A program made the position numbers. DNA of 9,779 nt. Source: a virus. Taxonomy: Duplodnaviria; Heunggongvirae; Uroviricota; Caudoviricetes. Positions within the stretch are counted from its first letter, which is position 1; each line of letters starts with the position of its first letter. Of the stretch, positions 6,001-9,000 are shown in pieces. Location of the stretch: the IMG/VR virus record IMGVR_UViG_2740892231_000007; one strand, written 5' to 3'.

Positions 6001-9000
6001 GGACAATGAGGAATTGCACGAAAAACCCCCTGAACTCCTCACTTTTCAACGTATATATACCCCAAAAAGTGAGGAGCAAAAAAAATCCTTATGGAACATG
6101 CACATACAAAACACAAAAATCTCAAGTGAGACGAAGCGAGACGCTTTAAAAAGTGAGGCGTAAAAGTGAGCATGAGTGAGGAGATAACCAAAATGCGCAG
6201 AGACAGAACAGAGCCGAAATATAAAGCGTTAGACATGACAGAGCACGCCTTAAAGGTGGCAATCAGGGTAATAGACCGCCACGCGGGGGAAGGATACGCG
6301 AAGGAACATCCCGACCTGATAAGCGCATTCATGACCACGGCGGCGGCAAACTTTGCCACGCTGACAGAACGGGAGATTGCCGAAGCGGAACAGGTAACAA
6401 CCATCAACGTAAAAACCGGAGAGTCAGGCGATGATACATGACCGCATAGCGGAGGAACTCGAGGCGAAAGGATTTTACCGGAGGGCGGCGGCGCGATGGG
6501 GTGAAGTCATGCAGCTGGTGGAGACAGACAAGGAACGGCATCAGGTTACGATGCGACGGCTGGAATGTTCCAGGAAGGCACAGAGGCCACCGGAGCCGCC
6601 GGATAACTTCGGAGACCTGAGAAAGGCAGTCGATCGCACTTATGCTGAAATGGGTATAGATGGTGTAAGCGATGAAATATGGCGTAATTACCCAGACAGC
6701 TAATCAACAGCCGGAGAAATCCGGCTTTTTTGTAGGTACTCCTGGTGGGGGTGGCCTGTCCACGGGGCGGAGGGGCGCGGAAAAAGGCGCATTTTTTGAT
6801 TTTTATGGCACCATCACCACCACTATAAGTTATTGATATGTTGAGAAATAAAAATTTTTAGTGTCGAATCAGGTTGTTTTTTGTTCATCACCGGAACGTT
6901 CCCGAAAACATTTACAAAAAACAGGCGCAAAAAAAGCGCCCCCGATTGCTGTTACCGGAGGCGCTTTTACACGACAAAGGAGTTTTTATCGCCAGGATGA
7001 CGAGTCTTAATACTGCTTCAATGGCAAAAATGCGTCAATAACTTTGCCTTTCTGAGAATAATCAGAAAAATCATAATCTGATTTTCAGGTATAAAATGAT
7101 TTATCTATTACTTTTATCGATCAATAATGATGCCCGTTAATCAAAACGGAGGCGGATTTATGCCAGAGAACAACACCAGAAAGCCGGATAAAAGTGCCAC
7201 GGTACACATAGACGCCGGAACTATGGAGAAGATCGAACGCTATCAGCAGTTCATCAAAGATAATCACCCGGGTATGCCAGTACCCACGAAAGGACAAATC
7301 ACACGCAGCGCGGTTGAATATTGGTACAGGGCAACGTTAGGGGTCTGGCTATGAAAACATGGTTTTCCATTAAGGCTATGGCAGATGTTGTCTATGTGCG
7401 CATTTATGACGAGATCGGCGGGTACGGTGTAAAAGCATCGGCACTTACTGACGAGATCAACGCGTGTGGTAATGCGTCTGAAATCCATCTTCGCATCCAT
7501 TCACCTGGTGGCGACATCTTTGAAGGGCTGGCTATCTATAACGCCCTGAAAAATCATCCGGCAAAGAAAATTGTACACATTGAAGGCATGGCGGCTTCTA
7601 TGGCCTCGTTTATTGCCATGTGTGGCGATCACATCGTTATGCCTGAAAACGCGATGATGATGATACATGCCCCCCGTGGTGTTACTGCCGGAGTGTCGGG
7701 CGACGTTCGCCGCTTTGCTGACCTGATGGACAAGCTGGGCGACACGATGGCGGAAACCTACGCCGGAAGAACGGGCAGGAGCAAACAGGAAATCACCGCC
7801 ATGATGGAGGCGGAAACCTGGATGGATGGCAATGAGTGTAAGGCTAACGGCTTCGCAGATGAGGTTATACCCGCGATTACAGCAATGGCCCGAATTGAAT
7901 CAAAACGAATCGGAGATTTTTCAAATATGCCGGAAAAAATTAAAAGCATGATCAGCCAGAAAACTACCAGTGGCGAACAGGAACGACTTAACGGCATCCG
8001 TGAATTGTTTGGCACGTTCAACGGAAGATATAACGACCTGGCTATAAGTTGTCTTGCTGATTCAGAATGTAGCGTTGAGAATGCACGCGAACGCCTTTTA
8101 CTCGCTATGGGTAAAGAATCAACGCCAACAAACAAAACCACCCCCGCAAATCTTTACTACGCGTACACGGATAACGGCAACATAACCGGCGATGCAATGC
8201 GCCAGGGGCTTAATGCGCGTCTTGGTCACGAACGGGCCGAACGCGGTAATCCTTACGCCATGATGAGCCTTTTCGATATGGCACAGGCATCATTAACCCA
8301 TCGTGGTATAAGCACGGGCAGCTACAGCACACGCTCGCAGATAGTAAACGCGGCATTCACCCACAGCAGCAGCGATTTTACCGATATCCTTGCTGGTGGC
8401 GCTGAAAAATCAGTGCTTGCAGGCTGGGAGCACAGCGGCGAAACATTCCGCCAGTGGACGAAAAAAGGTTCCCTTTCAAACTTCCGGGAAGCCCGCCGCG
8501 TTGGTATGAATGGCTTCTCAACGTTAAACAAAGTGCCGGAAGGGGCAGAATATAAATACATCACCACCAGCGATCGCGGTGAACCCATCGCGCTGGCTAC
8601 TTACGGGAATATTTTCAGCATTACCCGCCAGGCTATAATCAATGATGACCTTGATCAGTTATCAACGGTGCCAATGGCTATGGGCCGTGCAGCATCAAGA
8701 ACGGTGGGAAATCTGGTTAATCTGGTGCTTACAGGCAACGTAAAACTTTCTGACGGAATAACGCTGTTTGACAAAAAACACAGCAACCTGATTGAAGCAG
8801 GACTGACAACACCGGGACTTAGTGCAGCACGTCACCTGATGCGCACACAGAAGGACAAAAATGGCGAAGTGCTGAATATTGCGCCTAAATTCCTTTTAGT
8901 TCCGGCAGCACTGGAAGATCGCGCGTTGCAGATGATTAACTCAACCGCACCTTTCGGGGCTGATAAAAACAGCGGGATCTTTAACCCGTATCACAAGCTA

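What the first reader, a model, noticed from the sequence alone, without database searches (positions are those of the whole stretch)
6840..7159. Long structured leader before the capsid unit: bidirectional terminator and candidate ~75-nt antisense sRNA
About 450 bp separate the PerC-like stop codon from the next start codon. Within that region:
- A perfect 10-bp palindrome GGAACGTTCC lies at 6893-6902.
- A small hairpin GGCGC-A7-GCGCC lies at 6924-6940. It shares its 3' arm with a larger GC-rich hairpin (6936-6964), so the two are mutually exclusive.
- The larger hairpin is followed by TTTT on the plus strand and by U7 on the minus strand.

On the minus strand, TTGACG (7038..7033), a 17-nt spacer and CAGTAT (7015..7010) would start a transcript near 7003 that ends at this terminator. 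The resulting RNA of about 75 nt contains CUCCUU, which is complementary to a Shine-Dalgarno sequence.

On the plus strand the same hairpin would stop transcription coming from cassette A before it reaches the head genes unless it is overridden.

Either reading places an RNA-level checkpoint in front of capsid synthesis. P4 immunity is famously RNA-based, so this has precedent among satellites.
Basis: inference. Interest (0 to 1): 0.5.

Follow-up and report, generated by a model that had tools for sequence, protein, structure and literature searches.

The report
Satellite cos site plus terminator hairpin
The "long leader" in front of the capsid genes of this E. coli phage satellite is mostly a DNA packaging (cos) site copied from a helper phage, followed by a conserved terminator hairpin and the capsid promoter; this layout is already known for such satellites, and the proposed small antisense RNA remains unproven.

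Summary
Only the large hairpin (6936-6964) exceeds chance and is conserved.

The 456-nt gap between PerC and the capsid unit is not an RNA leader. It contains, in order:
- a complete lambda-type cos site (about 6733-6923), 90% identical to the cos region of lambdoid phage 1720a-02;
- the hairpin, which reads as a strong leftward terminator (-20.4 kcal/mol, U7) and a weak rightward one (-14 kcal/mol, U4);
- a poorly conserved spacer;
- a sequence block (about 7075-7129) shared by all relatives. In relatives without cos it sits directly after a terminator, so it is probably the capsid-unit promoter.

A second cos site lies at 9271-9459.

- The GGAACGTTCC palindrome is broken in about half of the close variants.
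- The anti-Shine-Dalgarno CUCCUU is lost in the diverged relative.
- The antisense promoter scores no better than the best hit in shuffled sequence.
- Rfam gives no family match.

A discrete antisense sRNA remains possible (about 0.25) but has no direct support. The element is an ordinary member of the cos-type Gram-negative PICI family.

The parts
6709..6731 (+). Intrinsic terminator T1 ending the replication/PerC operon. Stem AGCCGGA/TCCGGCT, GAAA loop, T6. It abuts cosQ.
   Evidence: Called by the terminator scan. Folds at -12.6 kcal/mol, z = -4.1. Present in all satellite types, with stem changes on both sides in L010 (GCCGGGA/TCCCGGT).
6733..6923 (.). cos1, a lambda-type cohesive-end packaging site. 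Sub-parts: cosQ-like AGGTACT at 6734-6740 (GGGTCCT in many variants); cosN core CCACGGGGCGG..GCGCGGAAAAAGGCGC at 6760-6790, with the top-strand nick predicted between 6764 and 6765 by analogy with lambda; cosB-like part to 6923.
   Evidence: 89.9% identity over 168 nt to the region between the lysis genes and terS of phage 1720a-02, E = 2e-60. Alignments with five phages and with lambda (A1, A3, A4). Same position as the cos sites described in Gram-negative PICIs (PMC10111431; PMC6092414).
6826..6838 (-). IHF consensus WATCAANNNNTTR (TATCAATAACTTA) inside cosB. It lines up with the lambda I1 region.
   Evidence: It is the only match in the 9.8-kb window, where 0.58 are expected by chance. The ATTGATA core is invariant in A1. 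It aligns with lambda ATAACTTAATG.
6875..6923 (.). Inverted repeat TGTTTTTTGT (6875-6884) / ACAAAAAACA (6914-6923) at the distal end of cosB. These are candidate small-terminase binding sites (inference).
   Evidence: Perfect 10-nt arms. Both arms recur in cos2 and in the cos of the O157 helper prophage (A3). The palindrome is not conserved.
6929..6968 (-). Terminator-type hairpin. Stem 6936-6946 / 6954-6964, with A7 (6929-6935) on the left and T4 (6965-6968) on the right. On the minus strand it has 11 pairs (2 G-U) plus U7. On the plus strand it has two C.A mismatches and U4. The small alternative hairpin is at 6924-6940.
   Evidence: Folding. Stems are conserved while the loop and flanks change in L009. 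98.7% of cells paired, 9 of 11 pairs invariant, 0 compensatory changes across 7 distinct variants. Not found in phages and not found outside this satellite context in E. coli.
6969..7045 (.). Poorly conserved spacer.
   Evidence: 71% identity in L009 for 6969-7060, against 97-100% for 7061-7159. AAGGAG becomes AACGAA and the micro-ORF shrinks to 4 codons in L009. Promoter score of 9.9 bits equals the shuffle background. The site is retained in L009 at 10.4 bits.
7049..7129 (+). Probable promoter/operator of the capsid (late) unit. Inverted repeats AATCAGA/TCTGATT (7060-7066 / 7077-7083). Conserved block TAATCTG..TAKAAA..TTTATCTAYYACTTTTATCGATCAATAATG. Candidate -10 AATAAT at 7123-7128 with a weak -35 TTTATC at 7100-7105.
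   Evidence: Shared by all 43 distinct relatives. In cos-less types (L024, L045) it follows directly on the terminator after ssb. Conservation stops at 7129 although the downstream leaders and ORFs differ. The promoter assignment is inference: 6.3 bits, and no TSS data.
7148..7354 (+). Shine-Dalgarno GGAGG (7148-7152) and the first gene of the capsid unit (ATG 7160, 64 aa, phrog_4934). Its stop overlaps (ATGA) the start of the ClpP-protease/major-capsid fusion gene (7351-9240).
   Evidence: Sequence. PHROG and Pfam hits. RefSeq annotation of identical genes.
9247..9459 (.). Terminator (9247-9268) plus a second cos site, cos2. Perfect cosQ GGGTCCT at 9271-9277. cosN core around 9297-9325. cosB runs to TTTACAAAAAA at 9449-9459.
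   Evidence: Direct repeat of 6721-6835. 87.7% identity over 204 nt to the cos of the O157:H7 prophage that hosts the embedded copy of this island, E = 6e-67. Terminator fold of -15.1 kcal/mol.

Best explanation
The 456-nt gap is a composite DNA control region of a cos-type Gram-negative phage-inducible chromosomal island (PICI). It is not an mRNA leader.

Reading left to right:
1. Terminator T1 (6709-6731) ends the int-alpA-rep-PerC transcription unit.
2. cos1 (about 6733-6923) is a full copy of a lambdoid helper's cosQ-cosN-cosB. The helper terminase would bind and nick here to package satellite concatemers.
3. The hairpin at 6936-6964 starts one base-run after cos ends. It is an intrinsic terminator that is strong for leftward transcription and weak for rightward transcription. 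Its most likely job is insulation. It would stop RNA polymerase coming from the promoter-rich, AT-rich late region (or from the leftward promoter-like site at 7038..7010) from running into cos and the upstream operon. Secondarily, it would catch rightward read-through.
4. The capsid unit (orf64 plus the protease/capsid fusion) is transcribed from its own, probably activator-dependent, promoter in the conserved block at 7075-7129. This would give a short leader of about 25 nt.

Shown here: the cos homology, the stability and conservation of the hairpin, the terminator-block adjacency in relatives, and the second cos site.

Inferred: the nick positions, the strand on which the hairpin acts, the insulation role, and the promoter position.
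For: - Window 6727-6894 matches the cos region (between the lysis genes and terS/terL) of 1720a-02, CP-1639, mEp460, phi458 and Stx phages at 74-90% identity.
- It aligns with the lambda cosQ heptamer, the ACG|GGGCGG nick and the I1-like segment.
- A second copy at 9271-9459 matches a different helper's cos.
- Published PICIs carry cos sites at this position (PMC6092414; PMC6739421; PMC10111431).
- Hairpin energies and z-scores favour the minus strand.
- In L009 the minus-strand U7 is kept while the plus-strand T-run shrinks from 4 to 3. The L009 and L075 changes keep G-U pairing on the minus strand only.
- Type-B relatives have a clean plus-strand terminator at the analogous place. Cos-less relatives have terminator then block directly.
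- Block conservation ends at the candidate -10 element.
Against: - There are no transcript 5' or 3' end data for any copy of this island. Strain Sakai, for which dRNA-seq and Term-seq exist, did not appear among the 60 best of 151 matching genomes, so it probably lacks the island.
- There is no compensatory covariation in the hairpin.
- One variant lineage (C6942T) keeps pairing on the plus strand and breaks it on the minus strand.
- The candidate late promoter has a poor -35 and scores only 6.3 bits.
- Part of the block's invariance comes from how the relatives were found: 20 nt of it were the search pattern.
- Cleavage at cos1 is untested, and its cosQ has 2 of 7 mismatches in this window.
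Confidence: 0.62

Rival explanations
1. A discrete leftward sRNA gene: promoter TTGACG-17-CAGTAT (7038..7010), start near 7001-7005, terminated at the hairpin with 3' U7 at about 6929. The resulting RNA of about 75 nt would act on a ribosome-binding site or on helper or host mRNAs.
For: - The site is the top sigma-70-like match on either strand of 6700-7200, and also in the diverged L009.
- 11 of 12 hexamer positions and the 17-nt spacing are kept in L009.
- A strong minus-strand terminator lies about 40-75 nt downstream.
- The whole 6924-7045 segment is a lineage-specific cassette, absent from types B to D.
- Precedent: HnrS/EcOnc10-12 is a 66-nt Hfq-bound sRNA between the lysis and terminase genes of Sp9/10/12 in strain Sakai. 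The Sp10 copy is on the minus strand of the record, opposite to the late genes, and its seed pairs with an RBS (PMC13502914; coordinates).
Against: - The promoter score equals the best hit in shuffled sequence. The consensus scan calls nothing.
- Retention of 11 of 12 positions at 71% background identity gives p of about 0.1 (my binomial estimate).
- CUCCUU becomes UUCGUU in L009, and the 5' hairpin is not retained there.
- The RNA body (6969-7003) is the least conserved part of the region.
- No Rfam match. The sequence is unrelated to HnrS.
Confidence: 0.25
2. A plus-strand attenuator or checkpoint. The capsid unit is transcribed from upstream through cos, and the hairpin (with the alternative small hairpin) decides whether transcription reaches the capsid genes.
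For: - The hairpin followed by UUUU exists on the plus strand at -14 to -18 kcal/mol.
- Type-B relatives have a bona fide plus-strand terminator at the analogous position.
- In helper-embedded copies, Q-modified late transcription could read through all of these terminators (PMC10111431).
Against: - The stronger terminator T1 lies upstream.
- The plus-strand stem has two C.A mismatches and only U3-U4.
- The small competing hairpin is broken in L009 and is not used in the minimum-free-energy fold.
- The conserved block downstream behaves like an independent promoter in cos-less relatives.
Confidence: 0.08
3. The hairpin acts at the DNA level, or is a relic. It could be an accessory part of the satellite's cosB (a protein-binding dyad), or the leftover terminator of a lost leftward gene, with no present RNA role.
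For: - It abuts the last conserved cosB element at 6914-6923.
- EcCICFT073-type PICIs have satellite-specific cosB sequences read by Rpp-TerS (PMC6739421).
- There is no covariation to demonstrate RNA pairing.
Against: - cos2, the helper cos sites and type-B satellites lack any counterpart.
- No Rpp homologue was found in the island by sequence.
- The stems are conserved while the loop and flanks drift, which argues against a decaying relic.
- The flanking T/A runs are typical of terminators.
Confidence: 0.1

Closest known systems
cos1/cos2 of the E. coli PICI EcCICFT073 (Fillol-Salom 2018, 2019) and the cos segment of HE-PICI 11capE (Tommasini 2023)
   Same: - A Gram-negative PICI with int, alpA, a replication module, PerC and a capsid homologue.
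- Two cos sites with lambda-like cosQ/cosN, placed after the replication zone and around the late zone.
- In 11capE, a 258-bp stretch about 90% identical to the helper's cos.
   Different: - EcCICFT073 has a satellite-specific cosB that needs Rpp. Here both cos copies keep phage-type cosB, each matching a different lambdoid lineage, and no Rpp homologue was detected.
- The hairpin cassette at 6924-7045 is not described for those elements.
Bacteriophage lambda cos (cosQ-cosN-cosB with IHF site I1)
   Same: - A hairpin plus T-run just upstream of the GGGTCCT-type cosQ.
- About 24 nt from cosQ to ACG|GGGCGG.
- An A/T-rich IHF-type segment and inverted repeats in cosB.
   Different: - The cohesive-end sequence differs after GGGCGG.
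- The R-site sequences are unrelated, because the helpers use a DUF1441-type small terminase.
- In the satellite no terS gene follows cosB.
HnrS (EcOnc10-12), a prophage sRNA of EHEC Sakai
   Same: A short RNA gene between the lysis genes and the packaging/head genes, ending in an intrinsic terminator, with RBS-targeting logic. The Sp10 copy lies on the strand opposite to the late genes.
   Different: The sequences are unrelated. HnrS has mapped ends, a Northern blot and Hfq binding. The candidate here has none of these.
cos-type SaPIbov5 with capsid homologue Ccm
   Same: A satellite that carries the helper's cos and a homologue of the helper's major capsid protein.
   Different: It is Gram-positive, its sequences are unrelated, and it has no protease-capsid fusion.

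Membership tests
Lambda-type cos site | Sequence homology to the region between the lysis and terminase genes of cos phages | tested here: met
   74-90% identity to 23 phage records. The phage context was checked in four of them.
Lambda-type cos site | cosQ heptamer GGGTCCT about 23-24 nt upstream of the nick | tested here: met
   cos1 in the window matches 5 of 7 (AGGTACT). Many type-A variants and cos2 match 7 of 7. The spacing is 24 nt, against 23 nt in lambda. The lambda cosQ position is from my own knowledge of Wieczorek and Feiss 2001.
Lambda-type cos site | GC-rich cosN aligned with the lambda cohesive end (ACG|GGGCGG) | tested here: met
   Invariant CACGGGGCGG in all satellites, phages and lambda (A1, A3, A4).
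Lambda-type cos site | cosB with an IHF site and terminase-binding repeats | tested here: inconclusive
   One exact IHF consensus at 6826-6838, where 0.58 are expected per window. Conserved inverted repeat at 6875-6884 / 6914-6923. Binding was not tested.
Lambda-type cos site | Cleavage by terminase and helper-dependent packaging | not testable with these tools
   This needs virion DNA end mapping or a transduction assay.
Rho-independent terminator | GC-rich stem, loop of 3-8 nt, followed by a U-tract | tested here: met
   Minus strand: 11-bp stem, 7-nt loop, U7, -20.4 kcal/mol. Plus strand: an imperfect stem, U4, marginal. The scan tool flagged the overlapping small hairpin plus T6 on the minus strand.
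Rho-independent terminator | Transcript 3' ends at the U-tract | not testable with these tools
   No Term-seq data exist for a strain carrying this island.
Trans- or cis-acting bacterial sRNA | Own promoter above background | tested here: not met
   9.9 bits against a shuffle median of 10.0 bits. The consensus scan found 0 sites.
Trans- or cis-acting bacterial sRNA | Conserved seed or structure in relatives | tested here: not met
   CUCCUU and the 5' hairpin are lost in L009. Only the terminator is conserved.
Trans- or cis-acting bacterial sRNA | Membership of a described RNA family | tested here: not met
   The best Rfam hits have E = 0.16-0.48, far below the gathering scores. The sequence is not HnrS.
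P4 CI / C4-type immunity RNA | Homology to the C4/CI RNA covariance model | tested here: not met
   No hit at E up to 1 in the whole window. That the C4/CI family is represented in Rfam is from my own knowledge. In PICIs such homologues are reported inside Bro-zone genes, not at this position (PMC10111431).
Gram-negative cos-type PICI | Unidirectional int, alpA, replication genes, cos, and a late zone with a capsid homologue | tested here: met
   Pfam and PHROG hits. RefSeq contexts next to tRNA-Pro and inside a prophage terL.

The most novel reading that the evidence does not exclude
The lineage-specific cassette at 6924-7045 may be a genuine satellite-encoded sRNA gene (leftward promoter at 7038..7010, terminator at 6964..6929). 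It would sit between the packaging site and the capsid promoter and be expressed from the island in STEC strains. It would be analogous in position and strand to the prophage sRNA HnrS, and would act in trans on helper or host mRNAs.

A second, independent reading is that the two cos copies, each matching a different lambdoid helper's complete cos (including cosB), give the satellite a dual helper range without needing an Rpp-type adaptor.
Probability: 0.22. Interest if true: 0.5.

Novelty: new member of a known kind. Interest (0 to 1): 0.25.

Why it matters
Identifying the region as a cos site explains how this satellite is packaged. The satellite is common in STEC serotypes O157:H7, O145:H28, O121:H19 and O111:H8.

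The result also predicts which lambdoid prophages can mobilise it: cos1 resembles the 1720a-02/CP-1639 type, and cos2 resembles the type carried by the O157 host prophage. It shows that the capsid unit is a separate, terminator-insulated transcription unit.

If the leftward RNA exists, it would be the first sRNA assigned to a Gram-negative PICI late-region boundary. On present evidence that is speculative.

Tried and rejected
- **Rfam.** A scan of the whole window at E up to 1 gave only chance-level hits: snR75, ctRNA_p42d (terminator-like) and BSnc120.
- **HnrS/EcOnc10 identity.** I recovered the sequence from the bioRxiv supplement. BLAST found no meaningful match in the window or in the loci fetched by then.
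- **Public TSS/Term-seq data for strain Sakai.** I fetched three Sakai regions by guessed coordinates and did not find the island. Sakai is also absent from the 60 best of 151 matching genomes. The PNAS 2020 supplement is not held.
- **Relatives in other species.** The search for related loci with the 64-aa protein in genome contigs gave no confirmed relative. The block pattern in genome contigs gave one spurious hit, in a Paraflavitalea genome. My first metagenome pattern had the wrong gap length and found nothing.
- **Plus-strand micro-ORF.** AAGGAG followed by ATG 6997-7041 (14 aa) has a 14-nt spacing and is not conserved in L009.
- **Minus-strand ORFs ending at the terminator.** Only a 21-aa TTG ORF lies inside the hairpin region.
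- **Rpp-type adaptor.** Neither small ORF matches RppC or any other solved chain.
- **Dispersed repeat (REP-like).** The 271-nt segment occurs only in this satellite context, in 152 genomes.
- **Block or hairpin homology to helper phages or to lambda.** None found.
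Full report
**What the window is.** The window encodes the following, all on the plus strand:
- a tyrosine integrase (1-1242);
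- an AlpA-like HTH protein (1739-1945);
- DUF4222 (4275-4574);
- a RepA-type helicase (4571-5980);
- PerC (6431-6703);
- a 64-aa ORF (7160-7354, phrog_4934);
- a ClpP-protease/major-capsid fusion (7351-9240);
- a 93-aa ORF (9498-9779).

Near-identical copies occur in 144-152 complete E. coli genomes, many of them STEC. They sit next to tRNA-Pro or inside a prophage terminase gene. This is the gene order of the Gram-negative cos-type PICIs described by Fillol-Salom et al. (PMC6092414, PMC6739421) and Tommasini et al. (PMC10111431).

**Checking the observation.** Every motif is at the stated coordinates. Their statistical weight differs.
- The large hairpin folds at -20.4 kcal/mol on the minus strand (11 pairs including two G-U, z = -4.9). 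It folds at only -14.0 kcal/mol on the plus strand, where the two G-U pairs become C.A mismatches (z = -2.9).
- The small hairpin folds at -8 to -10 kcal/mol.
- A perfect 10-bp palindrome is expected about 0.4 times in 450 nt (my arithmetic).
- The leftward TTGACG-17-CAGTAT site matches 8 of 12 consensus positions and is not called by the consensus scan. In a position-weight scan it is the best hit of 6700-7200 on either strand (9.9 bits), but shuffled sequences reach a median best of 10.0 bits.

**The main result: a cos site.**
- A sensitive BLAST of 6700-7165 against phage genomes matched only 6727-6894. The 23 matching records are lambdoid phages, including 1720a-02, CP-1639, mEp460, phi458, Stx2 phages and VT1-Sakai.
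- In all four records I opened, the match lies between the lysis genes and the small and large terminase genes, which is where lambdoid cos sites lie.
- The alignments show invariant CCACGGGGCGG..GCGCGGAAAAAGGC, an upstream GGGTCCTCC motif and a conserved A/T-rich distal part (A1).
- Against the lambda end-junction three features line up in register: the cosQ heptamer, the ACG|GGGCGG nick and the ATAACTTAATGTTTTTA (I1-type) segment (A4).
- The only exact IHF consensus in the whole window falls in this segment.
- Identity to 1720a-02 is 89.9% over 168 nt, E = 2e-60.
- A perfect inverted repeat, TGTTTTTTGT (6875-6884) / ACAAAAAACA (6914-6923), closes the site.

**A second cos site.** Searching for the cosN core found a second copy after the capsid gene, with cosQ at 9271-9277 and cosB running to 9459. 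It too is preceded by a terminator (9247-9268). It is 87.7% identical over 204 nt (E = 6e-67) to the cos of the O157:H7 prophage that hosts an embedded copy of this island. cos1 matches that prophage only over the cosQ-cosN part. Two cos sites are also a feature of EcCICFT073.

**The hairpin in relatives.** I collected 43 distinct upstream regions from the E. coli loci fetched earlier and from IMG/VR contigs that contain a conserved block near the capsid unit. A later metagenome scan added four more contigs, two of them with new type-A variants. The regions fall into types.
- **Type A** (window-like, 19 variants plus a diverged one, L009, at 84% identity) has the hairpin.
- **Type B** has a different spacer after cos and a clean plus-strand terminator (GCCGGA-loop-TCCGGC, T6) at the analogous place.
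- **Types C and D** have no cos. The terminator after ssb is followed directly by the conserved block.

The two terminators of type B carry the left and right flanks of the single terminator of types C and D. The cos cassette therefore looks like an insertion between duplicated terminators.

Within type A:
- The stems of the hairpin are invariant apart from two single changes (C6942T, G6936A), while the loop has three changes in L009 and the flanks many.
- Pair counting gives 98.7% paired, 9 of 11 pairs invariant and no compensatory change. Support therefore comes from conservation and thermodynamics only.
- The minus-strand U-tract is kept at U6 to U9. The plus-strand T-run shrinks from 4 to 3 in L009.
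- Two changes keep wobble pairing on the minus strand only, and one keeps it on the plus strand only.

I therefore read the hairpin as a terminator that works mainly leftward, with moderate confidence.

**What does not survive comparison.**
- The palindrome is broken in about half of the type-A variants.
- The small hairpin arm mutates in L009.
- AAGGAG/CUCCUU becomes AACGAA/UUCGUU.
- The 5' hairpin of the putative 75-nt RNA is not retained.
- The stretch 6969-7060 is the least conserved part of the region, at 71%.

The leftward promoter-like site is retained in L009 (11 of 12 positions, same spacing, still the top hit at 10.4 bits). That is weak support; my binomial estimate is p of about 0.1.

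**The capsid promoter.** The block TAATCTG..TAKAAA..TTTATCTAYYACTTTTATCGATCAATAATG (about 7075-7129) is shared by all types. Conservation stops exactly after AATAATG, although three different leaders and first ORFs follow it. Twenty of these bases were my search pattern and are invariant by construction in the IMG/VR set. L009 to L011 were found independently by BLAST and also have them. Because the block follows a terminator in every type, I infer that it holds the promoter and operator of the capsid unit. The candidate -10 is AATAAT at 7123-7128, the -35 is weak, and inverted repeats lie at 7049-7088. If so, the hairpin lies upstream of the capsid transcription start and is not part of a leader.

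**Comparison with known systems.**
- The region matches the published architecture of cos-type Gram-negative PICIs.
- It differs from EcCICFT073 in keeping phage-type cosB at both cos copies and in lacking a detectable Rpp.
- No Rfam family matches, including C4/CI.
Its sequence is unrelated.
- Strain Sakai was not among the matching genomes listed, so I found no public 5'/3' end-mapping data for a strain that carries the island.

**Verdict.** The interval is a terminator, a cos site, a leftward-biased terminator hairpin, a variable spacer and the capsid promoter. It is an ordinary member of a known kind. The antisense sRNA is possible (about 0.2-0.25) but unsupported beyond a promoter-like match at background level and a good terminator.

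Noticed in passing
window 9247-9459: A second complete cos site (cos2) lies after the capsid gene and is preceded by its own terminator. It matches the cos (including cosB) of a different lambdoid prophage from the one cos1 matches. cos1 has a degenerate cosQ (AGGTACT) and cos2 has a perfect one. This suggests either dual helper range or a division of labour between initiation and termination of packaging.
   Followed up: partly
L002 1184-11071 (O157:H7 strain 3-5-1): In many O157:H7 genomes the same island is inserted inside the large-terminase gene of a lambdoid prophage, in the same orientation as the late genes. This is the helper-embedded PICI configuration of Tommasini et al. 2023.
   Followed up: partly
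window 6709-6740 and 9247-9277; L003, L076, lambda 48451-48479: In every satellite and phage examined, including lambda (GATGATAATCATTATCAC-TTT), a hairpin followed by a T-run sits 2-3 nt upstream of the cosQ heptamer. The hairpin sequences differ, but the position is constant.
   Followed up: partly
L024, L045 (IMG/VR contigs); L010 5416-5901: Some relatives have no cos between ssb and the capsid unit. One (L010) carries a DUF1441 small-terminase-like gene after the capsid fusion gene. Packaging strategy therefore varies within this satellite family.
   Followed up: no
window 7049-7129: A set of nested inverted repeats (AATCAGA/TCTGATT, TTTCTGA/TCAGAAA, TTTATCGAT/ATCGATCAA) overlaps the conserved block in front of the capsid unit. 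They look like operator sites for an unidentified regulator.
   Followed up: no
window 7160-7354 and 9498-9779: Two small conserved ORFs of unknown function (phrog_4934, phrog_1561) flank the capsid gene. Neither has a Pfam hit at E up to 0.01 or a solved-structure relative.
   Followed up: partly
window 1914-3356: A 480-aa GTG ORF matches a PHROG 'transcriptional repressor' family only over its last 90 residues. It is probably over-extended, and related islands carry different genes at this position.
   Followed up: no
whole window; L020; NZ_CP042350.1: The upstream region compared (window 6690-7174) is identical to that of IMG/VR contig IMGVR_UViG_2534682157_000021 (9776 nt). Window 6895-7165 is 100% identical to E. 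coli RM10410.
   Followed up: no
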